This document shows, piece by piece, positions 1-44,745 of a stretch of DNA of 64,000 nt; the first letter of the stretch is position 1; each line of letters starts with the position of its first letter. A program made the position numbers and the translations under genes. The notes beneath the pieces were generated by a model. The model did not search any database. It was not told the DNA's origin and was given only the letters and a program-made list of their open reading frames with translations. Origin of the DNA: Ancylonema sp. (Eukaryota); NCBI GenBank assembly GCA_050230475.1, contig JBFLGF010000076.1, positions 1 through 64,000 of the forward strand, given 5' to 3'.

Positions 1-249
1 ACTGTCCGGCATGTTCCGGTGACATGATCTGACTGTTGTTGTGTTATGATAGGCCGACGGTCCGCAAATCCGACCGTCGGCACACTTTGTTGATTCTCGT
101 TTTGTACGAGGCATCGTGGTATACCTACACGATGCCGACTATTCAATAATTATTCTTCCGAAATAATACTTGTCATTGATCATCTGTGAGAGACGTAGTT
201 CCTTGTACGGAAAGAACCACACGATCTCGCACACCTATCACGTACCAAC

Positions 250-1778
250 GATAAAACTCGACCCCCTTCCGTTAGCCAAGCTTCCCCCCGAATATCACGA
301 CTATGCAGACGTGTTTTATGAGTCACCAACCAATATCCTACCCCCCAACAGGCCCTATGACCTGCAAATCCCCCTCCTACCTGACAGGGACCCTCCTTGG
401 GGTCCGATCTACTCTCTTTCCGAACCTGAGCAGGCAACCCTAAAGACTTACATCAAGGAAAACTTGGCAAACGGCTTCATACGGCCGTCTACCAGTCCGG
501 GGGGGGGGGGCAGTCATGTTTATCAAGAAGCCGGATGGAAAGCTGAGGCTCTATGTGGACTACAAAGCACTCAACGCGGTCACGGCAAAAAACCGCTGCC
601 CCCTACCCCTCATACCTGAGTTGCTGGATCGCCTCCACCGCGCCAACATATTCACCAAGATCGATCTGCGCAATGCGTACCATCAGTTGCGGATAAAAGA
701 GGGGGATGAGTACAAAACAGCGTTCCGCTGTCGCTATGGGCACTTTTAATACTAGGTATTCCCTTTCGATCCTACCAACGCCCCCGCAGCCTTCCAGTCA
801 TTCATTTCGGACGTCTTTCGGGAGTACCTCGATGTCTTCCTAGCGGGGATGCTAGACGACATGATCATCTATTCAGGCACCGAAAAGGAACACGTCCCCC
901 ACGTCTGTGCAGTCATGGCAGTCCTACGCAAGCACAAGCTCTACGCTAAACTAGAGAAGTGCGAGTTCCACGTGGACAACATCGCCTTCCTAAACTACAG
1001 GATCTCACCAGCCGGAGTGGAGATGGACCTAGCCAAGGTGGCCTCCCTCCTTGACTAGCCAAGTCCCCAGTCAGTCAAGGAGGTGCAGTCGTTCCTTGGC
1101 TTTGCCAACTTCTACAAGAAGTTCATCATGGGCTACTCTACCCTGGTCTGTCCCTTCACCTCTTTGACCCGCAAGGGGGCCAAGTTTCAGTGGACTCCCA
1201 AAGCGGAGGCAGCCTTCCAATCCCTCAAGATTGCCTTCACCTCGGCCCCCGTCCTGCAGCACTTCCAGCTAGACTTACCTCTGACCATAGAAGCTGATGC
1301 CTCCGACTTTGGACCGGGTTGCGTCCTCTCCTAGAGAGACGCGGCAGGCGAGCTCCACCCCATCGCTTATTACTCGAGGAAATTTTGTACTCCGGAGCTC
1401 AACTACCCTATCTACGACAAAGAGTTGTTGGCGATTTTAATTGCCTTCCGCCAATGGCGGGTCTATCTAGAGGGAGTTGCCCACCCCATCGTCGTTTATA
1501 CGGACCACAAAAACCTGGAATACTTCTAAGCAACTCGCACGACCTCTAGACGACATGCTCGGCGGGCCGAGACGTTGGCAGCGTACGACTTTTCCATCGT
1601 CTATTTGAAGGGCGCCAGCAATGGCAAGCTAGACGCCCTATCCCGCAGACTTAACTACCTGCCGCCAACACTATCCCCCCACCCTATCCTTCCCCAGCCC
1701 GCTATCCTTCCCTCCCCCTCCCTACGCGCTGCAGCTATTCTTCTAAGCACTTCCGACCCCCTTCTCCCGGACATTCGC
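250..1778 (+). pseudogene. Ty3/Gypsy (Tf2/Tcn1-like) retrotransposon pol remnant: reverse transcriptase + RNase H, disrupted
   Basis: Consecutive ORF pieces give [73 protein letters not shown], (Y>M)[41 protein letters not shown]. Frameshift in the G-run at ~499-510 and several in-frame TAG/TAA stops. Truncated before integrase by the LTR at 1779. Confidence 0.95.
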
Positions 1779-2735: not shown

Positions 2736-4336
2736 TCGACGACAATGGGGACCTCCCGGCAGGTTTTGGTGCTGCAAAGCTGCTAGTTGAGCTCCAAGAG
2801 ATGCTCGAGATGCCAACCCATGTCGTGGGCGCTTAGCATCTGAGGCTTCCGCTAGGTTATAGTTCTTTGGGCGACGCTCAGGGTGCTTCGCCCAACACTG
2901 AGACTCATTGTGGTTTTGCTTATCGCAAAAGCTGCATGTTGCCCCCTCTGTCATATGTACTCGCGGCATGGTCGTGGCGGCTCCCCTTGCCGTCCCAAAC
3001 CGAGCGGCGAAGGGTGCTTTCACATCCTTCCCACGTCATGCTGGTGGAGTCTTAAGTGATTTCCGCAACCTCCCAGTGGTCTCGTCCCGTTTTGCCGTGG
3101 GGAAATTCACGGCCCTGTACCCTAGCCTGTCACAAGTGAAGCACTTGATGGGAGGTTTCCGCCCCATCCCTCGTCCTCTATTCTCAACTCCTCTTCCCCC
3201 TCCATTCCCAATTCCCTCCCCTCCTCCATTCCCAGATTCCCCTCCTCCTACCCCTTCCCCAGGTTTCCCCTTTCCCTCCTTTTTTCCCCCTCCTTCCTTC
3301 TTCCCCTCCTTCTGACTTGGTTGCAAGCCAAATATCCGTAGTTTAGCGTCACGGGATATCTGCGCCTTCTCCTGAGCTACTGCAATGACCCTGGCATTTG
3401 TTATGCTCATCTTTGGCAACCCTGCCCCATCCCGCCTCTGTTCTTTTGCCCTCAACTTCGGGGTGATAACACGCCTCAACCCTTTTGGTAGGCATTCCTC
3501 ATAAAAATATGTTGCTTGGCGTGGACTGACCATGTGAGGAACCAAGTTGACCGTGATCCGGGAGAGGTCCTTATAAATTGAGTTAGCGGTTGCTCGTGGT
3601 GCTGGAGTGGAGTTATGGAACTCCACCTACCATTCAAACCCCACAGTAGCAAAGCGTGTCCTCAATCTTAGGAAAAAACCCTCGAGATCCGCCGGCTCTG
3701 CTTGCAACGGTGTTGCTGGAGGCCCTTGAAGTCCTGAAGTGGGTCGCATTAGCCCCAACTCGCCTTCTGATCATAGTAAATGCGCGAGATCACCCTCTCC
3801 GCTTCCATCACTTGCGCTATTGCTAGAGTCGGGTTGTCAGGGTCATTCGGGTCCAAAGACCGGCGGTAATCATCCAACACCAATCTGGCCTGCCCCTCCA
3901 CGTAGGCACAAAACCTCTTGACAAACTCAAACTGCCCACACTCCCCACTAAGGAGTTTTTGAAGATTTCTCTTCTCCGCCTCCCACACATCTTTCATATT
4001 TTGTATAAATTTACGCTGGGCCACTCCCCCTCCTCGCGAATACTTGGGCACAACCAAGGTACTGTCCATCTCTGTCTCGACTTCTAAAACCGCAAAATGC
4101 ACTACAAAATAAGCCGCAAACACAAGTATCGGAGGTACAAAAGCCAGTGGCTGATATACGACAAGTTGGAGATTCGGCACTCCGGCCTTTCCCTCTGAGT
4201 TTACAGAACCTTGAGAGTCAACCGATCTTGCCCTCGAATCAAATGTATCGCTCGACGATTTACTACCACCACCTCTTCTCCCACTATCCACTCTCCGCAC
4301 CAAACGTATGTTCTTGTCGAGATACCAGGCAGTCAT
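2735..4336 (-). pseudogene. Retroelement gag with two CCHC zinc knuckles (decayed; same family as the gag at 11103-12743)
   Basis: ORF pieces 3749-4336, 3036-3626 and 2727-3023. Knuckles CFTCDRLGYRAVNF (degenerate) and CSFCDKQNHNESQC. Motifs AYVEGQAR, EPADLEGFFLRLRTRF and ATANSIY align by eye with AYCKGEAQ, EPHELVEFIQRIKERF and DTVASIY of the second gag. Confidence 0.75.
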
Positions 4337-5812
4337 GAACTGCCTGACTCACTTGAGTCCGAAAACTACCACCTCAGTTTATCAGATCTCAACCATGCGC
4401 TGAAAATACTGTTCAAAATCAGATTTTGAAAATTTTGCTAGCGTAGCATTACGCCGGAGTGAACGTACTAGGCAAGATATCAAGCCCCGTCCCTTAACGC
4501 GTCGGACGCACAATCGTACGCAGAAAATGATCACCGCTACGACATATCGCATTCGTTCAACGATATCAGCCTTTAACATCGCCATAGCCAAAGCTCAACG
4601 CAATCACAAAACGACACGTCAACGCTCTTGCTAAAGCTTAGTCGGTATGCACTCTAGTGTAATGCAACCAGATGCTCATGAATCAAGTACATAGTCCGAA
4701 ATTCCAACAAAACACTTCCGACTCACTTGTGCCTTTCGTATGCTAGGATGTAATCTACGCCGTACGCATGCGTCCAATCGAACGCAATTAATACAAAGGT
4801 ATTCCACCCAAAGCCGCAATCGATTGCGATCATAATCGGCCAATCACATACCTGCCAGCGTGTCACTATCTGACCCCACAACCCAGGAGCTCTGCCCGAC
4901 ACCGTTTTGTTGGAACGTTCCGTGGCCTGGCGATCGCTATACCGTACACAAACAATTTCCTATTACAGCGATTGCTAGAAATCGCGACGGCCTCGCCTCA
5001 AATCGCGACAGCATCGAACATCAATCGTTCTATCGAACAACTAATAATTATGCGGGCTCCCGCCCGGTGCCGCTCTAAGTTATCTAGATTCTTAAGATTG
5101 TTTGCCCTGTGCCCTGTGCCCTGTGCCCTGTGCCCTGTCGCCGGGTTTAAAGTGCTGTGAATTGCTACCGGTCGGCGGACGGGCGGCGTCGGCCGTTAGC
5201 GGTAGACGCCGTCAATTCTGCCGGCCAATGTCGCCATTCTTGCCTCGAGTCGAAAGTCTCGACTCGAGATTCTCGACTGCAGCTCATCACCACTACCATG
5301 TCCGAGGCCTCTGCGCGATGTCGAAGATGGCTACCCAGTATCGCAGCACGTTTTAATGTAATTCTACTGTAATTCAAACGAAAATCAATATTTCGACTGC
5401 GACTGTGACCTACGCCTGCGACTGCAATTGCGACTACAATTTTCGACTCCGACCAAAAGGAAGCCGACCATCATCAGCCAGCCAGCCTACTTTTCTGCCA
5501 GCCAGCCAGCGGTAACACTTCATCACTTCTCTCTGTCTCTTTCTCTCCTTCATCAACTCAATCTCTGCCTCGCAATCACTATCTCGATTTCTCACAAAAG
5601 TCAAGAGCTTCCTAGACAAGCAGCGCCCAGCCGTTAGCGGTAGGCGCAGCCAATTTTGCCGGCCGATTTTGCCACCTAATTCTGGCGGCCAGCCAGTCAG
5701 CCAGCTATCCAGCCAGCCAGCAAATTGTTGCTCTCTCTCTCTCTCTCTCTAACTCTTACTCGTCCTTTCTATGTTTCGCGCTCTCGCGCTCTTGACTTGT
5801 CTCGGTTGTCGC

Positions 5813-6720: not shown

Positions 6721-7344
6721 TAGCACACATAAAATAGCATGTTGAAACGAACGCGATTTTTTAATACGGGTGGAGTATGTGGTGGCCCCCCACTTACACC
6801 AACCTCCAACCCCCGAAATGGTGAGAGGATCTTACGCAAAATTTTCCGACGCGAAAACGCGAAAACGTGAAAATTAGCCAATCACAGCACGACAAATCAG
6901 CGCTGACATGTCATTCTGACTAAAGAAAATACCGAAATCGTCAAACCAGGCGGAATAAACCAATCACAGACCCCGAACCGACCTAACGTGGACAGACTCG
7001 TACAAGTGTACGGTCCATGTCATATTATTTCAACCAGCCGAAAGGAACTGATGAAACTTAGGTCTCTTGAAAGACCTAAGAAATAACTATGTTGCGGATG
7101 AAGCATCCCCAAGACGGGACTGCACATAGATGCGTGCCGACCCTGCCTGCAAGGGCTGCAGAAGTGAGGGGGCCATAAATTTCTGACTTGTGGCCCAGAA
7201 GTCCTGACCCAGAAGCACCTCCATACAGCGAGCTCTCAATTCTGTCATATATTCCATACAGTCATCAAATCGTCGCTGCTTTCCGCCACCCGCCAAAATT
7301 ACCCTTGATATAGTACCATGTTGAAGTCATTTCCGATTGTATTA

Positions 7345-7895
7345 CAGTGCAGTCTCGATATAGTGTCAATTTTATAGACATGGGGATTTGATGTCACTAT
7401 ATCGAATGCTAGGGCTGTCACTATACACTGTATCGTGACATTTGATAGGGCGACAATAGGCAAATGTCACTATATCGAGAGAAAGTGAAATGCAGATCAA
7501 TATTTTTAACAGAGGTGGCTCATTCAAACGGCGTTTGTTGTAACATCCTCTCGCTACAGTAAAACCTGTCTACATGACTCATGTTGGAACCATTTAAAAA
7601 ATTGTAATTATATTGGTTAATAATTTACGCGTCACATTTTGGGTCAAAATAATTGGGGCAGAATACTTTGCATTAAAAAACGCAGGTTATTAATTTTCAC
7701 AGTATAAAGTTAGACAGGTTTCACCGTACAGTGACATCCCAATATTAGAATCTGAGATATTTTGGTCACTATAACGTGTGTCACTATAACGATTGTCACT
7801 ATATAGAGTGGGTTTTCATACAAGATTAGAAAAAGGGCAGAAAAAATGTCATTATATCGAGATTGTCACTGTAGAGTGTGTCACTATATCAAGAT
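7345..7895. mobile_element. pogo/Tc1-mariner-like MITE whose right TIR is split by the 7897-15251 insertion (remainder at 15252-15259)
   Basis: TA + CAGTGCAGTCTCGATATAG left TIR. The right TIR reads ctatatcaaga..., resumes as ttgcagtg + TA at 15252-15261. Internal (gatatagtgaca) subrepeats. Same family as 17185-17732 and 36699-38704. Confidence 0.85.
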
Positions 7896-9409
7896 TGTTG
7901 ACGTGCCAGATAGGATCGATAGGGTAAAGGGTCGTTGATGACGTAATCAGTTGATATATGACGTCATAACGCAGTCCATCGACATGAATTGGTGAATATC
8001 GATATCGATGACTTTGTAAATGTAACGGGGCATCTGCCTTAATTAAGGAGTTTGGTACGCTTGAATCATAAACGCAGTGATCGTAAACGATCACCGAAAC
8101 GTCGGCAGGAACGGTAACTTGACTCGTTACTCTCTCGCTGCGGGCAAGCAGACAGTGCTATCGACACTCTGAGGATTATAAAAGAGTGTGAAGCAATACA
8201 ATAACTAGGTAAGAACACTATACCTATCGGTCGGCGATCAGCTATATATGTGTAAGTCTTAATTGCTTGTAATTTGCAGCAAAGGACTTTGAGTCTGCAA
8301 ACTGAGCGTAGCTTTGACTTGCATCGTGTAAATGAGCACAAAGGGTAATTCGCGTAAGCGAAGTAAACAGACTGAATCACGGTGAGCGACATCTCGGATG
8401 TGCAAGCAACAATGACAAGAAATCACACTATGCAAGCAAGCAAATCGCAAGGCAAAGTACAATAGACAGAGATACAGATTACACGAGAGGCAAGCTGGAA
8501 TGCAAGTCTCTTCAGTGTTAGATTCAGCGAAAGCTTAATTCGGAGTTCGAAGTACAAAAAAATGTTCTATTCAAACTCTAGAGACGACGCTAGACGCGTG
8601 TCGATCTACAATTCAATCTCACAAAATATGTCTCGCGCGCAAATGTCTTATCTACAATCTCTATCGTCAGATATTCATCGACGGCTAACAATTATGACAA
8701 GTCATCACAAGTTGATTGCTGACTAGTACAAAGGTGCCACGTCCGATCGACGGATAATAAATGCTAAGAAAATATAATTCAAATATTGAGCGGGGGCGCA
8801 GGCTAACAGCTGGAGCTCGGGAGCGGGGCCGGCGAGCGGGGCGGAAGTTGTAGTGCGGCACAACTCTTGATTTGGCGCGGCGCAGACGTGATTTATTCAA
8901 GGCAGAGATTTAGTAGATATTAGGAGTAAAATAGCTAACGATCTCATACGTCGTGACAGCTAACGTGCCAAATATGATCGATACGGTAAAGGGTCGTTGA
9001 TGACGTAATCAATTATTGTATGACGTCATAACGTAGTCCATCGACATGAATTGGTGAATGCCGATATCGATGACTTTGTAAGTGTAACGGGGCATCTGCC
9101 CTAACTCCCCCCCCACGACTCGTAAGTCATGCGTCCACGTTCGGGTCGATGAGGCAGATGTAGGATCGCAGTCGCACAGTAGAGCGTGCAGGCGAGCAGA
9201 AAATAAGTTGGAGTTGTCAGGGTAACGTCGACAACTTGTGCTTGAATATCGAAAATCGGTGGTAAGTGGATTGTGAAAAAAAGTGTGATGATGATGTCGA
9301 CACAACCAGGTGAAAAGGGGTAGAGTATGATGTTTTGATGCATACAACACCCAGTGAAACAGTAATGTGTAGATGTAGCATCTCCCCCCCCATATTGGTA
9401 AGTCTATGT

Positions 9410-10260
9410 ACCTATCGACGATTTGACGGCTTGAGATGGCTGACAGGTCCAGATAGTGCAGGCCTGTTGTTGTAGAGTGCTGGATGTCGCGCAGCGAGTA
9501 GAGAAGCGAGAAAGGTAACGATGTTTTGATCCATCGCTCGGGCTGCAGCCTGATGGCGCGGAGCGTCCGTAAGATGCTCAGACACCGTCTCACCTAGAAG
9601 GAGTTGTTTGGCTTTCTCCTTAACCTAGACTGATGGCACCTCCCATCTCTGGCTGGTGTCATTCAACACCATGCCTGCTCCAGGATGTCCAGACTTGAAC
9701 TTGTAGTCCGGGGTGTTGGTGTAATTTGTAAAAGGGGGAATGGTTCGTCGTGGCTCATGAGGAGTGTTGAGTCTCATAGGGAACGTGTCTGTTCGGTACA
9801 CGTTGGTGGGGCTGTATCCCGGTTCCAGGATGGTTGCAAGGGGTCTGGTTTTTGATTTGGGTGGCAAGCATGTGTGCATCACCTTGGGACTCATGAAGTT
9901 TGTCCAGACATGGATCGGGCCATGCACGTTACTGGAGAACTGAGCGCCATCGAGGATGAGAGAGGGTCCAAGGAATGCGTGGATAAAAGGCAGCATCTCG
10001 CGGATCCACTCGGGGGTGTGCTCTGTGATGGCCTGAGTCCAGAAAGTGTAAAGAGGGTGGTATCGTTGGATCCCTCGCAGCTCCTGGAGTAAATGCACCA
10101 TGGTAATAAAGGGCAGCACCCGATGATCGAAAATGCCGCGGCAGGGGGACTGCGTCTGCTCCATTTCCTGGTTCTAGTTTCCAACGACCAGATCGATGCT
10201 ACCGTGGGCGAGCACCAATTTTTCCAAGTCCTCTTTCTTTGTGCAGTGGCGACACCGCTG
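9410..10260 (-). pseudogene. C5 cytosine DNA methyltransferase-like domain (degenerate; catalytic Cys absent)
   Basis: One frame with two TAG stops reads EDLEKLVLAHGSIDLVVGN*NQE...RGIFDHRVLPF...LGPSLILDGAQFSSNVHGPIHVWTNF...TILEPG...NTPHEPRRTIPPF...GAGMVLNDTSQRWEVPSV*VKEKA...RHQAAARAMDQNIVTFL. This follows the motif IV, VIII, TRD, IX, X order of retrotransposon-borne algal DNMTs (DLVVAGW.CQ, LDAA.FGS.AHR.R..WTN, EP...ERE.AMG, R...LG.AMD). Confidence 0.72.
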
Positions 10261-11102
10261 CTTGCGGAACCGAGGAATGTGTATTCCTCGGTTGGGGGAG
10301 TATCTTCCGCAGGAGGAGTGTCAAAACGCATGTTTCTCGCCCTTTTCTCAAACCACTTGAAGACACGCCAGTGTACGTTAAACTCTGAAAATTCTTCGTC
10401 GTCGGATTCGAGTTTGGCGAGGAATGCGTGGAAGAATGAAGGTTCGAAGGGTTCTGTCATTTCTCCCAACATTAGTGATGTTGTCGCTTGATCGCGTGAC
10501 AGCTCCATGTAAGTGTCGATGAAGACTTGAGCCTCTGCGCGAGTTGTTGGTGCAGGTGCGTTGTCGAAATGTAATCCCTGTGTCGGTGGTGCTGGAACCA
10601 GAGGTTGAGGATCAGGCTCGACGATCTCTATCGGTGTGTCGGCCGGAGGAAGTTGTGTGGCTACTAGTAGTGTAGTCAAAGCCTGGGGTAAAGTTGTTAA
10701 ACACGCAGTAGTAAAATGGATGTCAGCATCCGTCATTTGTGTATCTTCCTGAGTGTGGATATTGTTTGATATCATCCACGGGGGTGTCACGGTTGGAGAT
10801 GTTGTAAAATTTCCCCACACAATGTATGCCTTGTCTCGATCAGGTAAATTGTAATGCACAAGTGACGAAAAAACGGTATATTGCGGTACCGCGTTATGCA
10901 CCTGATCTGCAACTTGTGCGGCTTCATTGGCACGGCGCTGTTGTTCCTCGAGCTCCATGATTCGCTGGTCGCTGCAGTCGAGAATTGAAAACGTGGGAGC
11001 AGTGTCGATACATTCATTCCACTTAATCTGTGGGAATGAATCACCTCCAAGTAACGATTGTAAAGAGGGCAAAGGAATGGGTGGTGTAAGATGTTGCCCC
11101 GT

Positions 11103-12743
11103 TTAAAATTTACGACACTGTTCGATGGTGTGTCCTCCCGCGCCACAGTGTTGGCAGCGAGCACCTTTAGTGTATTCAGTGAGTCCGTACTGTCGTTGAT
11201 TCATTTGGTTCGGAGTTTTGGGTTGACCATAGGAATTTCCTTTGAATTGTCCTTGAGTTTGTCGTTGTCCGCCAATTTGTAAGTGCGGTGGTCGGTAAGG
11301 TGTTGACTGAGGTTGACCCGTCGATGTTTTCGATGTTTGGGTGCAGTCCTTTTTGTACTGACCCGGTTGGTTACATCCGTAACACACAATGCCGGATTTG
11401 TCGATGTCTTTTCCCGTTGTACGATCAACTTGTCGTGGTGTGTAAGTTGATGTCGATTCGGTGGAAAGTTTGTGGACGGTGTAAAAGATGGAGAGGGATT
11501 TTGTCGATTTTGATACCGAGGAGTTTGCGCTCGATCCGCCCGCGGCGCGAATATCCGCCTCTTGTTTCGCAAGGTATAGTTCGCTTTGGTTCGCCTCCTC
11601 CATTATTTCTTTCCTTGTAAGTGAATTCCTTCTTGGTGCAGAGAAAAATATTTATTTGTTCTCTTTAAAATAACAATCGTTGACATGCGATTGTAGATTC
11701 ACCGGAATTAATTGAAAGAAGCGGAGCGCCAATTGTTCGGGCGTCATGGCTCTCGCTTTTTTACGACGGTGGCTGCATCATTGTACCGAGGGTAAATCGA
11801 TGCCACGGTGTCTATTGGTGTAATTGTTACATTATCCAATTTGTTGAGGTATTCCGCCGAAGATGTACGGAATCTTTCCTTGATGCGTTGAATGAATTCC
11901 ACAAGTTCATGTGGTTCATCGAACGTCGGTTTCACCGGGGGCGTTAGCTTCTCATGCCGTCCTTGCATGCGATGGTAAAACGTGTCCGCGTAATAATCTC
12001 TCCATGAGTCCAGAATGTCGGACGTTTGAGATTCACCTGTGTTTTCTTCCATAAATTGTTGCCATTCACGTTGTGCTTCACCCTTGCAATAAGCGCCGAG
12101 ACTTTGAACGAGGTCCACGAGCTCCATGGTAGGGTGTAATAGGGGGGAAGCTCGCCATACCGTCACCACACCCTACAATACGATTGCGAGGGTTAGGTAC
12201 GGAAGTGCCAGCCGGCGGATCGGGACTTGCCGGTGGTGGTGAGTCGTGCGGAGTTTGTTTGTAAGGATTCGGTGATAAATTTGGTGACCCTGGAGGTGAC
12301 GCTCTAGGTGACGATCCCCAAGATGATAACGGAGGTGGAGGTGGTGTGGCTACTCGTGATGGTGAGCCAACTACTCGTGGTGATCGCGGTGGTGATACGG
12401 AACGGCTTCGTGGAGATGTTATCCGTGTGCACGGCGCACTATGTCTCCGTGGTAGTTCCACTACCGGTGGTAAGTTTTCACTTTGATTGTTGACTGGTGG
12501 AGGTAGCTCCAAGTCTATAGGTCGAAAGTCTGCTACTTCCGGTGAAATGTTTCAAAAAATATATAAGTTGATATCTGCGACGTCCGAGTTGATGTTGCTG
12601 AAACTGTCGGAGTCACTATCGCCAAAGATGTCCTTAGGTAATATAAAATCTTGTGTAGGAAGTCGGTCTGACGTTCCTACTGCTCCTTGGCTCTCCAGAT
12701 TCGCCGCTTTTTCGAGTCGACCTTCTATTCTATACGAGGGCAT
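11103..12743 (-). pseudogene. Gag-like region of the polyprotein (Pro/Ser-rich N-terminus, capsid-like core, two CCHC knuckles)
   Basis: ORFs 12552-12743 and 12078-12512 are in one frame, separated by a stop. Frameshifts near 12150 and 11755 link to 11744-12169 and 11103-11603. Knuckles CYGCNQPGQYKKDC and CQHCGAGGHTIEQC. The TAA at 11103-11105 is in frame with the next ORF (9891-11072). Confidence 0.8.
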
Positions 12744-15319
12744 ATACTTGGGGAGCGATCAGCACTGCCACCAAGTTGGCTATAGCGAGGTAGTGAAGAT
12801 TAGCAGGGTCAAATGAACGTTGTAGAACCGTGGTACGCTGCTGAAGTTGATAGCTTGTATGCAGAATTTGTTTTGAAGCGCAGCTTCACTATATGTGTCG
12901 ATGATTTTGAGTCGATCGCGGTGTCTTGTACTTCCCCTCCTAATTTGATGTAGACAGGTTCCAATAGTTTGTATCAAGGAGTTTGTAATGTAAATTGTTC
13001 GTAGCAAGAATCGACGAGTCCGATACAGAAGTTGTACTCCTCCACTCGTTGATGTCGCGCTCCTTGTAAATGTTTTTGAATTAACAATTTCAGTTAAACT
13101 GCAAAAATGCTTATTCAAAACACCAAGTGCAATGTTTCAACTCAAGTGTAAATTAGATGAGTTGATTTTGCAAGCAAAAATCTTGTGTAGAAGCGTGTAA
13201 GACACCTGTGAACAAGGGGTGGGGTAACAAGCCCACGCGTTCGATACGTAGTAAGTAAGGGTTCTGGCACCACGTGGTACCCCCAGATAGGCGTGGTAAG
13301 TCTCTGAGCCGTGGGGCTATCTCAGAGGGGGGAAGAGATGACATCTCAGGTGTAACCTTTATAGGAAGATCAAGTGGGCACTAGGTCCACACAGGGGATA
13401 GAGACGAAGCTCACTGTAAGCGAACCATTGGTAACTATATAAAAAATCTCTGACAGGGAGTAGTCAATGCAGTCGAGAAATGTATTTTGCAAGAGCGCTT
13501 TCCAAATTACAAAGATTGGTGTAAGGCAGCTTCCAAGTGAACGGGTCACTTGAGGGGGGTGTGATAAATCACGGGGTAAAGTTAACAGCCTCTCAAACGT
13601 TAAGAGATTGGTGAGAGTGCAACCCGAAGGTGGTACACAAGGTAAGATTTATACCGGATAGAAGCGTCTGAAACCGGCCTCACTGCTGCAATAACACTCC
13701 GTGGAGTGGTCAGACAAGTTAACAAGGTTTGACCCTCCTTGGTTTGCAAGTTACGGACTTTGTATACCGCCTGCGCAATCCCAAGGAGCTCGCAAGTCTC
13801 AATGTTACTACTCTAAGGCACAGCTTTTCCTTCGGACTGTCGAACTTGCTGATCCGATGAGACAAGTTTTTGATATGGTATGTAATAGTTGCTTGACCGC
13901 TGAATGGTCGTGCCGTGTAAAATATGTTGTTTGACCATTTAAAGGATCGTGCCGTGTAAGATATTGGGTGTCGCTGTGGACGTGACAACGGTAAAAGTGA
14001 CTTGCCAGTTGCCAGATGCCAAAAATCGATAGAGGCTCTCTAAGATGCCAGATAAGAGCGACACACAACTTTTTAAAAAAACAAACTAAATTTTGTACCT
14101 GGCAATTTGACAAGTTTGCAAATTTCAGTGAGTTCCCAAAATTCACAGAAATTTGAAAGATGACAAGTAGATCGAAGCAAGATTCACAGAAAATGCTCAC
14201 GAACAATTTCTACCTCTGTTGTTGATACACACAAGATTGATGGCTGGATTTTTTTTTCTTGAGAAATTGAAGCTACTTACCCTGAAATTGACGTCGGCGC
14301 AGAATTTCCAGTCGCCTTGTAAGAGTAGAATATTCGGAAAGTTGATGGCTTGAGGCCCTTTCGCTGAATCTAAGGAGTTGGTGCACGCTTGACTCGCGGC
14401 GGTGATCGTAAACGATCACTTGAACGACAACACGAACGTCGCCTTGGCTCGGCAACTCTCTCACTGCGGGAAAGTTGACAACGCGATAGCTCTATAGAGG
14501 ATTCGGGTATAGAGTATGCGTACAATAGCAGAGTAAGAATAGCGATAGCTCTCGGTCAACGAGGAGCTATTTGTGTGCAAGTCTCCACTGTAATCAGTTG
14601 CAAAGAAACAGTGAGTCTGCACACCGACTTGCGTCGTTGTAAATGTGTGAGTCACGAAGTTGCGTAGCAGGTAACGATAGTAAAGTGCTGAGAGCGACAG
14701 CTCGATCAGGCAAACAATAATATTGGCAAGCAAGACTGCGAAAGTACAGATTGCAAGCAAAACACGAGGATACACGAGATACAAAAGACACGAGAGGCAA
14801 GATCGGAAATGAAAGTCTCTTAAGCGTTAGATTCAGCGAAAGCTGAATTATGAGTTCGAGTCCAAAGGTTTTATTCAAACTTCTACAGACGACGCTAGAC
14901 GCGTGTCGATCTACAAGTCAATCTCAAAAATATGCCTCGCGTGTAAATTTCTTTTCTACAATCTCTATCGTCGGATATTTATCGATGGCTAACATTTATC
15001 ACAAGTTGATTGCTGACTAGTACAAAGTGCCACGTCGGATTGACGGATAATAGATGCTAAGCAAATCTAATTCAAATATTGAGCGGGGGCGCAGGCTGAC
15101 AACTCGAGCTCGGGAGCGGGGCCGGCGAGCGGGGCGGAAGTTGTAGTGCGGCATAACTCTTGATTTGGCGCGGCGCAGACGTGATTTATTCAAGGGAGAG
15201 ATTTGGTAGATAGTAGGAGTAAAACATCTAACGATCTCATTCGTCGTGACATTGCAGTGTATAGCGAGGATTCCTCTCGTCATTTACTTCGGATTGATTG
15301 ATGAAATCCGTCATCAATA

Positions 15320-16489: not shown

Positions 16490-17896
16490 CTGGGTTAAAT
16501 AATACGCAATACGCTATCAATACGCTAGGGTCACAATGCGCCGTATTTCGCGTATTGAAAATTTTCGCGATTTGAAGATACACGTGTTGTCAATAAGTAT
16601 GCGTTTTTTCACGATTTTATACCCCACACATATCCGGAAGTAGGATCCCTAACCTCAGGTGCCTAACCTGAATGAATTTGGCCATCAAATACGGAGGCAT
16701 TTATATATGAATTACATGATAGGCGAATGTTTCACCAATACATGTGCAATTGTTTTATTTATTTTGATCGTGCGAGAGTGGGGCGTTCATTAATAGACCC
16801 ACTCTTCTCATCTTCTCTCTTCTCTAAATTTGATTGAATTTGCACAAGTTTTATCAATCTTAACTCCTATTTCATTTTTACCGGTTCCAAAAATAAATCG
16901 ACCGGGGCTTCCGTATTTACTCGAGTAAGGTAATAAAAAAAGTGGAATGTTATAATATAATAAAGAATGCAATATTTAAATCCAAGAGACAATGATTCAC
17001 AATAACAATTCAATGAGCCTTATATTTACTTCGACTCATAGTTTTATTGATCCTACTCCTAATTTGAACTTGGACGGTCGGAAGAGGATTACTAGCGAGA
17101 GTGAAAATGGTTTTTGCCGTGCGATGTAACATCGAATAAATCTCACTTTCGCTATTTCACTTTCAAACGACGTGGACCTCGCTAAAGTAAACCCTTGATA
17201 TAGTGAAACTCGATATAGTGACAATCACGATATAGTGACATTTTTATAATCCTATATAAAAACCCACTCGATATAATGACAATCGCTATAGTGACACACG
17301 TTATAGTGACCAAATTTTCCCAGGTTTTACTATTGAGATGTCACTATAGAGTGAAACTTGTCTATAATAACGTTGTGAAAATTAGTAACCTCCCAAATCT
17401 AATAGAAAACAATTAATTATAAATTAATAACCTCTCTGAATTAATATTGTATACATGTCCTGGTATTATTACTTTGAAGAGGTTTTATTGCAGCGAGTGG
17501 ATATTAGAACATACGCCATAAATATGACATACCTTCTTCAATAAAAACCTCTCCGTATCCGATTTGGTTTCTCAAAATAACCCAAAATTCACTTTCCTTC
17601 GATATAGTGACATTGGCTCAATGTAGCCCTATTTAATGTCACTATATAGTGTATAGTGACACCTCTCGCATTCGATATAGTGACATTATTATCCACTGTC
17701 TATAATTTAGTCACTACATCAAGGGTTTACTGTATGTTGTTTGCCTCCGAAAAATCAGCCATACGTGCAGTTTCATACCGGAATTTAATACAAGTTCAAA
17801 ATTTTGCGTATTTTTAAGCGTACTAATACGGTGGGAGCACAATACGCGTATTAAGCGTATGATAACACAGCGTATTGTGCGTATTGTGCAACCCAG
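16490..17896. mobile_element. hAT-like non-autonomous element (hosts a pogo-like MITE)
   Basis: Inverted ends ctgggtt..aatacgcaatacgc / gcgtattgtgcgtattgtgcaacccag. Flanking 8-mers ggtgagac / gttgaaac match 6/8, consistent with an aged 8-bp TSD. Confidence 0.65.
17185..17732. mobile_element. pogo/Tc1-mariner-like MITE
   Basis: TA-flanked TIRs (a)agtaaacccttgatatagtga / tcactacatcaagggtttactg. Colinear with 36699-38704 once the nested inserts there are removed. Confidence 0.9.
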
Positions 17897-19403: not shown

Positions 19404-20125
19404 TGACGTGCTGGATTGGATCGATAGCGTACATGGGCATCAATGATGAAGTTAAGCGATGCAAAGACTTCAATCTTTTAGATGATCGATATGAGGTGAT
19501 GAATGTCGGTATGGTAGTAGTTGTAAAATGGGGCTTATCGGCGGTGATTGAGGAGTTTCGGTCGCTTAAATCGCGGCCCTAATTGTAAGCGATCCCGGTA
19601 CGACGGCTAGAATGGTAAATTAACTCGCTTCTCTCTCATTGCGGGCAAGCAAACAATGTTGGCGCCGCGCTGGGGATTTTAGCAACACATGAAGCAGTAC
19701 AATATCACAGTAAGTACGGGGATAGCTATCGATCGGAGATCAATTATTCATGTGTGGGTGTCCAATGCTTGTAATCCGTAGCAAAGGGACTTCGAATCTG
19801 TACGGATGAGCGAGAACTCATACTTGCGTGTGTCATACGTGAAGGCACATATTTGCAAAAGCAACAAGCAATTACTGTCACGGAGAAGGACACCTCGATT
19901 GTGCAATAGTAACTATCGACAAATGCAAGAGTGTTGATGCACCCAATACCAAAACACCCTTACTACACAGAATGGCAAAAAAGAAAAAAAACGAAAGGTT
20001 AAGAACGCAAGTCTAAACCGATGTGTGGGATTGAGCGGAAGTTGAATTATGAGTTCAGTCACCATATCTTATCAAAACTCTTGAGACGATGCTAGTTGCG
20101 TGTTGACGTACAAATCAAATTTGAA
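19404..20125 (-). repeat. Diverged solo copy of the B+A terminal repeat of the 7897-15251 element family
   Basis: tgacgtgctggattggatcgatagcgtac resembles the B start. ctctctcattgcgggcaagcaaacaatg and gagacgatgctagttgcgtgttgacgtaca resemble A-repeat blocks, in the same order. Confidence 0.75.
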
Positions 20126-36233: not shown

Positions 36234-36781
36234 TCGTGCAAGCCATAGGGAAGCTGTAAACACGTTCGAACGGTTTCTAAGCTCGAAACTCGCTTGTTTC
36301 ACGTCATATGCACATAGGAACGGGTTTTAAGACACTTGGAGTCGAAACTCTCTAAGTGAATAACCTGTCTAAAGGAATGTAAAATCCCGGTCTCGAGAGT
36401 ATACCTTCACACAGGGAGCTTACTGTAGAGCTTTTTTAGGGTTCTGGTGTTTTCAGTTTTTTACTCCACATTAATCCGGGGGGGGAAGGTTTTAATATCA
36501 ACTACAATCATAGATGGGTCAGCACCATGCGCAAGATTTGCGCACGCATGCGGCACAGCACACGTGTGCCGCACCGGGACAATTCCTGTAATCGACTTTC
36601 AGACGTCGAAATTTGGAAGTAGTGAACACTGACCATTTTTCACTGTAAGTTATTCGATATAACGTCTTAGGCCCTAAATTTGATGCGGCCACGTTGTACA
36701 GTAAACCCTTGATATAGTGATACTTGATATAGTGACAATTACGATATGGTGACATTTTTCCTGCCCTTTTTCTAATCCTAT

Positions 36782-37514
36782 CATAGTGGGTCCCCCGAGC
36801 CCGAAAATATGCGCGCCGGCTCGGAGCCAGGCTCGCAAAATCCACGAGCGGAGCGGGACCCACTGGAAAAAAAACAAAAAAACAAATGGTAGCCCCATCC
36901 CCCGCTAAGCGGTGGACTATTATGTTTGCGTAATACTGTTTCATAACATCTTGTATCCCGTCATTTTCCCGTCCCCGTTCACAATTCCCTTGTCGTTTGC
37001 AAGCTACAATTTGGTCGTTTATCGCGTCTCCCGTTCATCGTAATTTTCCGTACCATCGTTGTCCTCACGTTCCATCGTAATGTGTGACACTCATAGAGTC
37101 AGTTTGTCGTTTGCGCCACAGAATCTGTCAGTTTTTGAAGAAATCCCGCATCTGACGATCGAGCGTTGTTCACCGCCCCGTCCCTCTCCCAGATGTCGTC
37201 TGATTCCCGGAATGTCAGAAGATCTTCAAGATTCGGTACATAATCTTTCAGTTGCCAAAACAAATACCGGATCCGACGAACACAATATCTCCAGTAACCA
37301 TCAGAATATGGTTACTATGTTCGGGATGTACTGCCCGAAGTATCGGTAACTAGTAACTACCGGCTTGGCAGAGAAGGATTTTTACTTTGTCGCATTTCTA
37401 TGTTTCGTTTTTGCCAGGCGGCTCGCGGAAGCGCGCCGGTTCGAAGCTGGAGCGCGCGCGCGCCGGTTCGAAGCCGGGCTCGCAAATTCCACGAGCGGAG
37501 CGCGACCCACTATG
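36782..37514. mobile_element. hAT-like MITE, copy 1
   Basis: TIR catagtgggtc / gacccactatg. Perfect TSD AATCCTAT (36774-36781, 37515-37522). Confidence 0.95.
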
Positions 37515-37927
37515 AATCCTATATAAAAACCCACTCGATACAGTGACAATCGCTATAGTGACACACGTTATAGTGACCAAATTTTCCCAGATATTACTAT
37601 TGAGATGTCACTGTAGAGTGAAACCTGTCTAAATAATTGTAGTGAAAATTAATAACCTCCCAAATATAATAGAAAATAAATTAATATAAATTAATAACCT
37701 GTCTGAATTAATATTTTATACCTGTCGCAGCATTGTTACTTCAAAGAGGTTTTATTGTAGCGAGTGGATATTTGAACGAACGCCATATAGATGGCTTTAC
37801 TTCTTCAATAAAAACCTCTGCGCACCCGATCTGGTTGCTCACAATAACCTAAATTTCACTTTCCTTCGATATAGTGACTTTGGCTCAATGTCGCCCTATC
37901 AAATGTCACTACATTGTGTATAGTGAC

Positions 37928-38624
37928 CATAGTGGGTCCCCGAGCCGGAAAATATGCGCGCCGGCTCGGAGCCGGGCTCGTAAAATCCACGAGCGGAGCG
38001 GGGCGCACAGGAAAAAATAAAAAAACAAATGGTAGCCCCGTCCCCCGCAGAGCGGTTGACTATTATCCTTGCGTAGTACTGTTTCATTACACTTCGTATT
38101 CCGTCATTATCCCGTCCCCGTTCGCAATTCCCCCTTGTCGTTTGCAAGCTACAATTTCTGTCGTTTAGCATGTCTCCCGTTCATCGTATTTTTCCGTACC
38201 ATCGTTGTCCTCCCATTCCTTCGTAATGTGTAACTATCATAGATTCAGTTTGTCCTACAGAATCTATCCGTTTTTTGAAGAAATTCCGCATCTGACGGCT
38301 GAGCATTGTTCAGTGCCCCGTCCCTCCCCCAGATGTCGTCCGATTCCCGTAATGTCAGAAGATCTTTAAGATTCGGATTCGCTACAGAATCTTTCAGGTG
38401 CCAAAAAAAAAAACGGATCAAACTGACCGAGTAACCTTCAGAATATGGTTACTAAGTTCCGGACGTACTGCCCGAAGTACCGGTAACTAGTAACTACCTG
38501 CTTCGCAGAGGAGGATTTTTACTTCGTCGCATTTCGATGTTTCGTTTTTGCCAGGCGGCTCGCGGACGCGCGCCAGCTCGGAGCCGGGCTCGCAAATTCC
38601 GCGAGCGGAGCGCGACCCACTATG
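37928..38624. mobile_element. hAT-like MITE, copy 2 (same family and orientation)
   Basis: Same TIR. Perfect TSD ATAGTGAC (37920-37927, 38625-38632). Confidence 0.95.
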
Positions 38625-39572
38625 ATAGTGACACCCCTGACATTCGATATAGTGACATTATTTTCCATTTTCTATAAAATTGTCACTATGTCAAGGGTTT
38701 ACTGTAACCGGTTCACCAAATACATTTCATGATTTTGGAAACACCCCGGCACCCCTGGGGTGTAGGAGGTACCCCCCCCCCCCCCCCGGGAGATAATAAT
38801 ATAATTTTAGCGCCTATTTCCGCGCACCGTGCGCGAGATTTGCGCACGCGTGCAGCACGCGTGCGCGAGCGCACACTTGCCATACACGTGCGGGACGCGC
38901 ACTTCAATATCTCATTTATGACTACAATTATAGATGGGCGCGCAACGTGCGCAAGATTTGCGCACGCGTGCGGTAAGCTTGCGCTAGCACACGCTTGCGG
39001 CACACGTGCAGCCCCGGGACAATTTTAGTAATCGAATTCGGACGTCGAAATTTGACAAAGTAGTGAGTACAAACCATTTTGCGTTGTTAGTAGTTCGATA
39101 TAACGTCTTAGGTCCTAATTGAATACTGCCACGTTGTAACCGGTTCACCAAATCCATTTCATGATTTTGGATACATCGTGGCACCCCTGGGGTGTAGGAA
39201 GTACCATTTGTGAGAAGATATATTTGTGAAATTGGAGGTCAAGACGAAGTCTAAGGTCCTCGCTTTATTTGTACAAAAACTTGAAAGTAACTAAGGAAAA
39301 TAACACCCGACCCCATGAGGCTACTCAGTCTCGACCCTAAAGACAATCAATCGGTGATTCTCGAGCCTCACTCCCTACCTTAAATGCTATGTCAACATCG
39401 TCTGACAAATTTATGAACAAATGAATACATCAAACGTGCATTCTACTGAAAATAAAACTCGGACCTTCTGCCAACTCCACGCAACGAGACCAAAAACCAG
39501 CAATAAAAGCATAAGTCACAGTTACATCCATCCCGAACAATACGATTGTCTCCACATAGTCCCAAAACAAAA

Positions 39573-43199: not shown

Positions 43200-44745
43200 G
43201 TACCAACCTAACGGAAGAGAAGAAGGAAAACAACCCCAGCCCTAAAACAACCGAGCAACAATCCTTAACTCTGCTGACGACAATAACACCCGCGGAGGGG
43301 GGGGGGTAAGAGAGCCATACCCTCTTCCAATCGCAACGTCCTAGCATGAATTGCATGTGCTAGAGAACGTTGTAAAGCAACAGAAACTCTCTGCCGAAAA
43401 CCAAGTAACTAACAAACTGAACATTCTGCCCCGATCGCCCATTCAGTTGCGCCGCACGGTGAGCACAATCCACCAACAACCGATTGCTTGCATCGGAAAG
43501 CGCACCGTACGTCTGTCTCTAACGCAAACTGGATAAATTTGGTCCCTGTCGCGCGATCACGATAGTGAGTTTTGAGTTTTTTTGCGCCGTTCTGCATCTT
43601 CTGCGGCCACCAACCCTTGACAAGCCCGCGCGAGCGATCCACCAAAGTCACGCCGCGTGGGGTCAGCAATGACCATATCCACCAAAATATGCCCCTCCAC
43701 CAAATCCGAAATAACAATATCCACTCGGCCCCCACGACCGCCAGGAGCGGAAGACGGAAGAAACCCCGTACGTTCACGTTGAACATGTTGACCCGACTCG
43801 CGGAGGATGTGATATACGGAATCTCGCACCGAGTCATGAGATGAAGTGCGCCTCCACCCCTCGACTGCAGCGCATAAGATGCGTACCCAGGGCGTCCATA
43901 GAGTTGCCGCACGTGCACGTATCATAGGTAGCAAGGCAAGGGTGGGGAAACCCGAGGCGCACGCGCACGGCAGTGGATACGAAGGGAGGGAATGATAGGG
44001 GACGCCTGTAGCCAATGACCCGCACCGGATCCACTAGCGGACCGAAGCCTCGCCCTGGATGTCGCGAGATCGGTGCTCGTCTAAAGGAATACTGTCCCAC
44101 AAGCACCTCAAACGCAGCAGCGTGGGTAGCATCAAGAAGTGTCGCCTGCAAGTGAGGAACACAAGCCACGGCCAAGGTGGCATATGGAGGGACCGCCGCG
44201 CGTGCTGTTGTGTGAAGAAGCTCTCGCGCTTCTCAAAGCACGATGTGTGTTCGTAGACCTCCCTCGTCCACAGTGCTCTAAAACGGGCCGAATGATAAAC
44301 CGTGCTGCTGGAAAGCTGATGCGAGTGCAGGCACGGCGAGAGCATAAGAGCCAATAAAAGCAACTAGGGCAAGAACCCGAGTACGAACCAAACCCACGCC
44401 CCCCCGGGCGATCGGCAAACAAGCTTGGTCACGCGACAGACCAACATGGTCCGAAGTGCAACCAACCACCCCGCCCAATAGATCTGCTTCTACAACCCTC
44501 CATAGCGTGGCATCGTACTCCCCGAGCTGGTCGAGGAAGGAAAGGTAGGGTGGCAAGTACGCAGCAGATATTGATGGTCGAGCAGCAAACACCTGCGTAA
44601 GTAGGCGGAGGGCCACCTGCGGATCCTCAAGGAGGCATAATTGTTGAAAACCCCGCGTATCTTCCTCCAACGCAGCTGCCAGGAAGCCTCGCAAAATCGA
44701 CGACGATTTGCAAATCGTCTCGCGTGAAAAGACGATGACGGGACC
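43200..44745 (-). mobile_element. 5'-truncated non-LTR retrotransposon with restriction-like endonuclease (CRE-like clade), decayed
   Basis: Frameshifted ORF pieces: EDPQVALRLL, QACLPIARGGVGL, knuckle CTCGNSMDALGTHLMRC, HDSVRD, RVDIVI..ILVDMVIADP, AERRKKTHY, FIQFALETYGAL. Boundaries are approximate. Confidence 0.85.

What the first reader, a model, noticed from the sequence alone, without database searches (positions are those of the whole stretch)
9410..12743. Retroelement Gag polyprotein ending in a catalytically dead-looking cytosine methyltransferase domain, with no RT/RH/IN
Seen: reading through a few stops and frameshifts gives one polyprotein: Pro-rich region, capsid-like core, two CCHC knuckles, ~280 aa linker, then a DNMT-like domain. 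The C5-MTase scaffold is recognisable (IDLVVG, LDGAQFSS..H....WTNF, TRD, ..AMD). The chemistry positions have been replaced: motif IV reads GN(W)NQE instead of GW(P/E)CQ, there is no clear ENV, motif VIII RxR reads GPIH, motif X G.AMD reads ARAMD, and the SAM-binding FxGxG is not recognisable (at best FLGSASSG in the upstream frame). Known: DNMT capture by retrotransposons has been reported in dinoflagellates and charophyte algae. Inference: so many non-conservative active-site changes against only ~10% terminal-repeat divergence suggests catalysis was lost long before this copy decayed while the fold was kept. That would make it a pseudo-methyltransferase (possible DNA-binding or anti-silencing decoy) carried by a Gag-only parasite of an autonomous element.
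Basis: partly seen in the sequence, partly recalled or inferred. Interest (0 to 1): 0.88.

Follow-up and report, generated by a model that had tools for sequence, protein, structure and literature searches.

The report
Retrotransposon lineage carrying dead DNA methyltransferase
This is a broken copy of a jumping gene whose DNA-methyltransferase-like domain lacks the catalytic residues, as do its relatives across a deep lineage, so the domain was likely kept for a non-enzymatic job such as binding DNA.

Summary
The core claim holds; two parts do not. Its last domain is homologous to Gypsy-borne DNMT3 (170 hits; DNMT3A/B fold match). The catalytic Cys, Glu and second Arg are missing here and in every lineage fragment that covers them (6 of 6, 7 of 7, 4 of 4). 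These fragments are 29-88% identical to the window and form one clade (95/90), sister to intact enzymes. A new motif, N-[WY]-[NH]-[QT]-E, replaces GW(E/P)CQ. So catalysis was lost long before this copy decayed. Corrections: (1) 'FLGSASSG' is an off-frame reading, not motif I; (2) the break at about 10245 is an internal deletion of at least about 200 codons. This copy therefore cannot show that the family is Gag-only. No protease, RT, RNase H or integrase remains in it, and a second copy shares its 3' UTR. All close relatives are short unnamed fragments; no genome, DNA context or expression data were available. Function is inferred. New variant of a known kind.

The parts
7899..15251 (-). Whole element, 7353 bp, TG...CA ends, repeats arranged A-coding-B-A-B
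   Evidence: a third diverged copy ends at the same GCACGTCA
15252..15255 (-). Left copy of a probable 4-bp target duplication (GCAA; 3 of 4 match to the right copy)
   Evidence: removing the element and one copy restores a 24-nt MITE end at the same length as the copies at 17183 and 36697
14371..15251 (-). Repeat A1 (5' terminal)
   Evidence: against A2: first 410 nt 92.2% (K2P 0.083), rest 78.9% (K2P 0.25)
14827..14842 (-). Predicted RNA 5' end, complementary to the self-priming site; also present in A2 at 8533
   Evidence: lies near the drop in A1/A2 identity; transcription start inferred
14358..14373 (-). Tf1-type self-priming site at the 3' edge of A1 (16-nt perfect complement)
   Evidence: 1 of 2000 shuffles reached 16 nt
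12744..14357 (-). Long 5' leader, no Pfam domain in the frames scanned; may hold an antisense Copia-like fragment
   Evidence: 0 families in 6 translations; the Copia likeness is recalled
12078..12743 (-). Gag N-terminus and Pro-rich region, with a premature stop at 12552-12554
11655..12172 (-). Capsid-like region in two frames (lead only)
11343..11384 (-). Zinc knuckle 1, with Gln in place of His
   Evidence: sequence; Pfam zf-CCHC E 0.073
11115..11156 (-). Zinc knuckle 2 (CX2CX4HX4C)
10248..11099 (-). Linker of about 285 codons; its last 125 residues are 69% identical to P0156; small indel near 10272
10243..10247 (-). Internal deletion junction: at least about 200 codons missing (rest of linker and DNMT motifs I-III); upper bound unknown
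9412..10242 (-). DNMT3-derived pseudo-methyltransferase domain (motif IV region to C-terminus), premature stops at 10174-10176 and 9625-9627
9105..9411 (-). Short 3' UTR ending in a polypurine tract (9113-9105)
   Evidence: P0006 matches through to 9220; tract located
8961..9104 (-). Repeat B1 (internal), followed by GC and the TG start of A2
   Evidence: 90.9% to B2, K2P 0.098
8044..8958 (-). Repeat A2 (internal)
7899..8043 (-). Repeat B2 (3' terminal); palindrome CCTTAATTAAGG across the A2/B2 junction (8048-8037)
7895..7898 (-). Right copy of the probable target duplication (ACAA)

Best explanation
This is a decayed, internally deleted copy of a Gypsy-type retroelement whose Gag reading frame ends in a DNMT3-derived domain lacking the catalytic Cys, Glu and Arg residues, a loss shared by its whole lineage; the domain likely serves as a non-catalytic DNA-binding module, and this subfamily is likely mobilised by another element's enzymes. 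Shown: the homology, the shared motif loss, the single clade, the repeat layout, the self-complementary priming site, and the absence of pol domains in this copy. Inferred steps: (1) transcription would start about 410 nt into repeat A; (2) the RNA 5' end would fold back on the site behind A1 and self-prime as in Tf1; (3) the element's own Gag would package the RNA together with a helper's reverse transcriptase and integrase; (4) the internal B-A junction would serve as template for both ends, which explains why only the junction-side parts of the repeats stay alike; (5) integrase would join the TG...CA ends with a 4-bp duplication; (6) the dead domain, delivered on Gag, would bind the cDNA or target DNA without methylating it, shielding it or guiding insertion.
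For: Motif IV Cys is present in 88 of 95 aligned relatives, motif VI Glu in 106 of 115, and the motif VIII Args in 125 and 120 of 131. In the window's clade, Cys is absent in 6 of 6 sequences covering it, Glu in 7 of 7 and the second Arg in 4 of 4 in frame. Off-frame read-out also excludes the second Arg in P0016, P0038 and P0004 and the first Arg in P0016 and P0038. Asn at the motif IV Gly position occurs in 5 of 95 relatives, all in this clade, and all 5 also have Glu after the Cys position. The 13 rows form one branch, 95/90; tying the window's 6 closest rows to the intact sister group is rejected, p-AU 0.004. Identity to the window is higher at family-conserved columns in 11 of 11 comparisons, 5 of them p<0.05 against a neutral simulation. 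The model matches DNMT3A/B (Foldseek E 5e-6; Z 9.6, rmsd 5.0, 202 aligned). The frame ends within 40 residues of motif X in 13 of 16 rows of this clade and its sister, against 14 of 111 others. P0006 shares the 3' UTR. Among 43 relatives with an integrase, the DNMT precedes it in 42.
Against: No binding, expression or activity was measured. All close relatives are 86-266 aa fragments from short unnamed contigs, so no intact copy and no Gag-to-DNMT fusion was seen. The deletion is unbridged. Protease sits 126-596 residues after the last knuckle in 6 relatives, and the window plus P0156 cover only about 430, so protease is not excluded. The 11 constraint comparisons all share the window sequence, include near-copies, and use hits selected by similarity; 6 of 11 are not significant. 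The window keeps only 27 of 55 strongly conserved columns. The clade has long branches and gappy rows, was named after the first tree, and 5 of its 13 rows do not cover motifs IV-VIII. The good model used an alignment with 5 intact-type relatives; with lineage members alone pLDDT was 41.9. The first Arg is kept in P0023 and P0025.
Confidence: 0.5

Rival explanations
1. The pseudo-DNMT is real, but the family is autonomous. Protease, RT, RNase H and integrase lay in the deleted stretch, and the dead domain caps the polyprotein as a chromodomain-like targeting module.
For: The deletion has no known upper size. The domain is C-terminal in the intact sister clade too (7 of 7 rows end within 36 residues). 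P0099 has a DNMT-like stretch after an integrase and P0075 has one after a PHD finger.
Against: 42 of 43 integrase-bearing relatives have the DNMT before the integrase. About 430 residues after the knuckles show no protease. No clade fragment joins a pol domain to the DNMT.
Confidence: 0.25
2. The dead domain works through protein contact, like DNMT3L or DRM3. It pairs with an active DNMT3 (the helper element's or the host's) and stimulates or blocks it.
For: A catalytically intact sister clade exists. Host pseudo-DNMTs act this way (PMC2965745, passages). The helix after motif IV stays hydrophobic and is modelled with pLDDT 80-84; that this helix forms the DNMT3A-3L interface is recalled.
Against: No interaction was tested. 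The target-recognition region is retained here, while the DNMT3L matches cover only about 111 residues, which fits DNA contact better. Co-occurrence of active and dead elements in one genome is unknown.
Confidence: 0.12
3. The domain is a repurposed enzyme. The conserved N-[WY]-[NH]-[QT]-E loop supports a Cys-independent reaction on DNA or RNA, possibly still using SAM.
For: The new Asn and Glu are kept over 29-88% identity. Motif X Gly is kept in P0005, P0019 and P0062, and acidic residues at motif II in P0016.
Against: The replacements at motif VI vary (W, S, Y, H), motif X Gly is lost in the window's subfamily, and motif I was not seen in any member.
Confidence: 0.07
4. The domain is a functionless relic that drifts as a passenger in an element needing only Gag and its cis signals.
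For: Half of the conserved columns are changed, several fragments are frameshifted, and each single constraint test is weak.
Against: Branches up to 1.5 substitutions per site with alignable full-domain architecture, a conserved new motif, and 11 of 11 comparisons in the direction of constraint.
Confidence: 0.06

Closest known systems
KnitGypsy-Dnmt3 of Klebsormidium nitens (de Mendoza et al. 2018, PMC5890265; sections read)
   Same: Gypsy-type element carrying a non-permuted Dnmt3-like domain; repeats described as having the DIRS structure, which the paper spells out as A-coding-B-A-B. The window has that layout.
   Different: There the DNMT lies inside Pol and keeps its key residues. Here it ends the Gag frame, lacks the catalytic residues lineage-wide, and no RT, RH or IN follows. 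Self-priming did not appear in the parts I read.
Gypsy-borne DNMT3 polyproteins in the hit list, e.g. Closterium sp. NIES-53 CAI7911866.1 (P0009), P0059, P0043
   Same: 23-35% identity over the domain; Gag with zinc knuckles upstream.
   Different: Intact GW(E/P)CQ, EN and RxR; architectures Gag-PR-DNMT-RT-RH-IN or RT-RH-DNMT-IN-PHD.
Host pseudo-methyltransferases DNMT3L and DRM3 (PMC2965745, passages)
   Same: DNMT3-family fold kept after loss of the motif IV Pro-Cys.
   Different: Host genes with PHD or UBA domains that aid silencing. This one is element-borne, Gag-linked, of separate origin, and keeps the target-recognition region.
Self-priming LTR elements Tf1/Sushi, Tcn1, TAR (PMC6317226, passages)
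   Same: Priming site complementary to a site inside the upstream repeat instead of a tRNA.
   Different: Those have ordinary paired LTRs and a full pol; no RT is available here to test lineage.
PAT/Ngaro-type tyrosine-recombinase elements and TOC1 (recalled; search listing only)
   Same: Split direct repeats; TOC1 is recalled as non-autonomous.
   Different: TG...CA ends and a probable 4-bp duplication point to a DDE integrase; no recombinase domain appeared in the relatives scanned.

Membership tests
C5 cytosine methyltransferase, DNMT3-like (structural family) | Sequence and fold homology to C5-MTases | tested here: met
   170 hits; 18 of 30 scanned with PF00145; DNMT3A E 5e-6; Z 9.6. The query itself has no Pfam hit, and the model relied on intact relatives.
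Active C5 methyltransferase | Catalytic Cys in motif IV | tested here: not met
   Gln in the window; absent in 6 of 6 clade sequences; present in 88 of 95 relatives
Active C5 methyltransferase | Motif VI Glu (ENV) | tested here: not met
   Trp in the window; absent in 7 of 7; present in 106 of 115
Active C5 methyltransferase | Motif VIII RxR | tested here: not met
   G-P-I in the window; second Arg absent in 4 of 4 in frame, first Arg absent in 2 of 4; off-frame read-out
Active C5 methyltransferase | SAM-binding motif I (FxGxG) | tested here: inconclusive
   Deleted in this copy; no clade fragment covers it
Active C5 methyltransferase | Methyl transfer activity | not testable with these tools
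   needs an assay
KnitGypsy-Dnmt3-type element | A-coding-B-A-B repeats | tested here: met
KnitGypsy-Dnmt3-type element | DNMT inside a Pol frame with RT, RH and IN | tested here: not met
   none in this copy, with a positive control; the deleted stretch is unknown
KnitGypsy-Dnmt3-type element | Conserved catalytic residues in the DNMT | tested here: not met
Ty3/Gypsy superfamily | RT phylogeny and domain order | not testable with these tools
   no RT in the copy; affiliation rests on the DNMT's relatives
Ty3/Gypsy superfamily | TG...CA ends, target duplication, priming site, polypurine tract | tested here: met
   ends and tract; 16-nt priming site; duplication only 3 of 4 but in register with the MITE end
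Ty3/Gypsy superfamily | Gag with capsid and zinc knuckle | tested here: inconclusive
   one full knuckle; capsid a lead only
Non-autonomous Gag-only family | Full-length copies lack pol | tested here: inconclusive
   3' side shared with P0006; 5' side hidden by the deletion
DIRS-order (tyrosine recombinase) element | Tyrosine recombinase; no target duplication | tested here: inconclusive
   no recombinase Pfam hit in window frames or relatives scanned; the ends look integrase-made

The most novel reading that the evidence does not exclude
An ancient clade of self-priming, split-repeat Gypsy derivatives in green plants has turned a captured DNMT3 into a pseudo-enzyme with its own conserved active-site loop, fused it to Gag and discarded pol. 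The result is a parasite of methylase-bearing retrotransposons that uses a dead methyltransferase to read, shield or subvert DNA methylation: a transposon-borne counterpart of DNMT3L.
Probability: 0.35. Interest if true: 0.85.

Novelty: new variant of a known kind. Interest (0 to 1): 0.7.

Why it matters
The role of retrotransposon-borne DNMTs is stated as unclear in the paper that found them, and the main idea there is self-methylation of cDNA (PMC5890265, discussion). A lineage that kept the domain for a long time without its catalytic residues shows that the domain can be worth carrying without methyl transfer. It also gives a natural dead-versus-active pair (this clade and its intact sister) for testing binding, shielding or targeting. 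Pfam misses the domain, so such elements are invisible to routine annotation. The copy also suggests how A-coding-B-A-B Gypsy elements replicate: self-priming, with both ends rebuilt from the internal junction.

Tried and rejected
Pfam on window frames and the domain: no PF00145. PDB sequence search: 2 chance hits. Word-based protein search with the domain, near and longer lengths: 0 hits among 1698 and 3543 candidates, although relatives exist, so that tool is insensitive here. No whole genome is held, and no sequencing-run data were obtained, so copy number and expression are open. Locus searches: viral contigs gave no relative; prokaryote genomes 0; metagenome contigs 1 locus, L001, an unrelated bacterial gene. 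Alignment queries were too diverse for that tool. The second structure prediction, from lineage members only, failed (pLDDT 41.9). Rfam: 0 matches. Rejected: FLGSASSG as motif I; the P0156 C-terminus as motif I (no score); a degenerate protease at 'CIDTA' (no score). The third repeat copy is only slightly nearer A2 than A1 (68 against 45 sites, with 93 uniting A1 and A2), so it does not date their split. CpG observed/expected is 0.72 in the domain and 1.0-1.4 elsewhere in the element: uninformative. Rows dropped: P0129 (repeat protein). P0099, P0100, P0146 (misaligned or false), P0131 and the clade members were left out of the 131-row intact set. The trees used 70 and 40 selected rows of 162 proteins; the first was a quick tree. 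Earlier-findings look-ups by sequence, long word list and place returned nothing. Eight paper searches listed no report of a catalytically dead retrotransposon DNMT lineage. The supplementary figures of PMC5890265 that show its motif alignments could not be seen and may bear on this.
Full report
Observation. The last 275 codons, read with X at two stops (P0001), have no Pfam or PDB sequence hit. A full HMMER scan of 1.84 billion representatives gave 170 relatives at E<=0.001. Of 30 scanned, 18 carry PF00145, and the long ones are Gypsy polyproteins; the one with an organism name among the 30 looked up is from Closterium. An AlphaFold model from an 18-row alignment (pLDDT 70.7) matches DNMT3A/B best (E 5e-6; Z 9.6, rmsd 5.0 over 202 residues, with C5-MTase-family chains in the top 18 rows). 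That alignment held five intact-type relatives; without them the prediction failed. The homology rests on sequence, and the fold is supporting evidence only.

Is the loss of catalysis a family trait? Among aligned relatives, motif IV Cys occurs in 88 of 95, motif VI Glu in 106 of 115, and the motif VIII Args in 125 and 120 of 131. The closest fragments read NWNQE (P0003 88%, P0004 66%, P0016 52%), NWHTE (P0023, 29%) and NYHTE (P0057, 30%). With the window, 6 of 6 lack Cys, 7 of 7 lack Glu, and 4 of 4 in-frame sequences lack the second Arg; two of these four keep the first Arg. Three frameshifted fragments, read from their off-frame translation, also exclude the second Arg. The Asn of the new motif appears in 5 of 95 relatives, all in this group. 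Trees place these sequences in one clade (SH-aLRT 96 in a 70-row quick tree; 95/90 in a 40-row tree), sister to fragments with intact motifs. Forcing the window's six closest rows with the intact sister group is rejected (p-AU 0.004). Caveats: long branches, gappy rows, a group named after the first tree, and 5 of 13 rows that cover only the C-terminal half. One further dead-looking family (P0131, P0157, P0158) falls outside this clade on a very long branch.

Was the domain kept under constraint? Identity to the window is higher at family-conserved columns in 11 of 11 comparisons (differences 0.03-0.22), 5 with p<0.05 against simulated neutral decay. These tests share one sequence and use hits found by similarity, so they are suggestive only. 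The window keeps 27 of 55 strongly conserved columns, mainly Gly, Pro, Trp and hydrophobic positions. No dN/dS was possible without DNA of the relatives.

P0156, the only hit to the linker's end (1 of 152 candidates), is 69% identical and then continues in what is another frame of the window. 'FLGSASSG' is thus an off-frame reading. P0156 runs about 139 residues beyond the point where the window jumps to TKKEDL, and P0003 and P0016 carry DNMT sequence upstream of that point which aligns to the intact family. So about 10245 is a deletion junction removing at least about 200 codons, and no fragment bridges it. The first zinc knuckle has Gln for His, and the capsid assignment is a lead only.

Is the family Gag-only? 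Profiles for PR, RT, RH, IN and PHD find nothing in six frames of the element but find RT and RH in a neighbouring Gypsy. Downstream of the domain, only about 310 nt precede repeat B, and P0006 shares about 190 nt of it. The frame ends soon after motif X in 13 of 16 rows of the clade and its sister, against 14 of 111 others; some of these ends may be contig ends. Upstream, the deletion hides the answer. In six relatives protease lies 126-596 residues after the last knuckle, and about 430 are covered here. The DNMT precedes integrase in 42 of 43 relatives that have both, which argues against a whole pol in the gap but does not exclude it. I put helper dependence of this subfamily at about 60%.

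Element anatomy. Repeats run A1 (15251-14371), coding region, polypurine tract, B1 (9104-8961), GC, A2 (8958-8044), B2 (8043-7899). This is the layout reported for KnitGypsy-Dnmt3 (PMC5890265, legends of Figs 1e and 4c). The ends are TG...CA, and a 70%-identical remnant at about 19404-20118 ends at the same GCACGTCA. Removing the element and a 4-bp duplication (3 of 4 match) restores a MITE end at its normal length. Sixteen bases at the 3' edge of A1 pair perfectly with position 411 of A (1 of 2000 shuffles), the signature of Tf1-type self-priming (PMC6317226, passages). A1 and A2 are 92% alike before that position and 79% after it; B1 and B2 are 91% alike. Ordinary paired-LTR replication would not give this split. 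I infer that the internal B-A junction templates both ends each cycle, while the distal parts of A are inherited separately; a chimeric copy is an alternative I could not exclude. Only the 8-10% figure can serve as an age.

Mechanism and rivals. Most likely the dead domain, carried on Gag into the particle, binds cDNA or target DNA without methylating it (0.5, including helper dependence). Rivals: the same module on an autonomous element (0.25); a DNMT3L/DRM3-like partner or inhibitor of an active DNMT3 (0.12; PMC2965745 passages); a repurposed enzyme (0.07); a relic (0.06). None was tested experimentally. The host is unidentified. A non-vascular green plant or charophyte alga is inferred from the Closterium relative and from the statement that methylase-bearing transposons are absent from tracheophytes (PMC6338049, passage).

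Novelty. DNMT3 capture by Gypsy elements is known, and host pseudo-DNMTs are known. Eight searches listed no element-borne dead DNMT lineage; PMC12344493 (passages) only repeats the known cases. An unchecked AI note from this scan (e1-7618310) reports a dead C5-MTase-like domain between RNase H and integrase in another genome; I did not test it. Verdict: new variant of a known kind, interest 0.7.

Noticed in passing
window 170-1763 (+): A separate decayed Gypsy pol with RT and RNase H; 29-35% identical to the RT-RH of DNMT-bearing relatives, so not evidently the helper.
   Followed up: partly
window about 19404-20118 (opposite strand to the main element): Remnant of distal A plus B, 70% identical to A2-B2, ending at the same terminal octamer; may be a solo A-B left by recombination in a related family.
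   Followed up: partly
window about 13300-13900 (+): Inside the element's leader, a purine run followed by TG at about 13550 and translated scraps resembling the end of a Copia RNase H (recalled); no Pfam support.
   Followed up: partly
window about 7340-7895, 17183-17735, 36697-38700, 33208, 49685: A MITE family with TACAGT-type ends and long inverted copies; the retroelement sits inside the end of one copy.
   Followed up: partly
proteins P0131, P0157, P0158: A second dead-looking DNMT family (motif IV PPTPST, VI WNS, VIII RNT) on a very long branch outside the window's clade: possibly an independent loss of catalysis.
   Followed up: partly
proteins P0075 and P0014: P0075 joins PHD, a PCIF1-like domain (Pfam E 5e-18) and a C5 DNMT; P0014 ends in a second methyltransferase-like stretch after its PHD (by eye). 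Some of these elements may carry two methylases.
   Followed up: no
protein P0099: Integrase plus retroviral SH3 (Copia-like) with a DNMT3-like C-terminal stretch behind it.
   Followed up: no
window 43400-44800 (-), 3036-4348 (-), 46494-49258 (+), 55000-57900 (+): Fragments resembling a CRE-type non-LTR element, another Gag-like frame, an F-box/LRR gene (F-box-like E 0.01) and an importin-beta-like gene with poly-G/C introns; names other than F-box are recalled from the translations.
   Followed up: no
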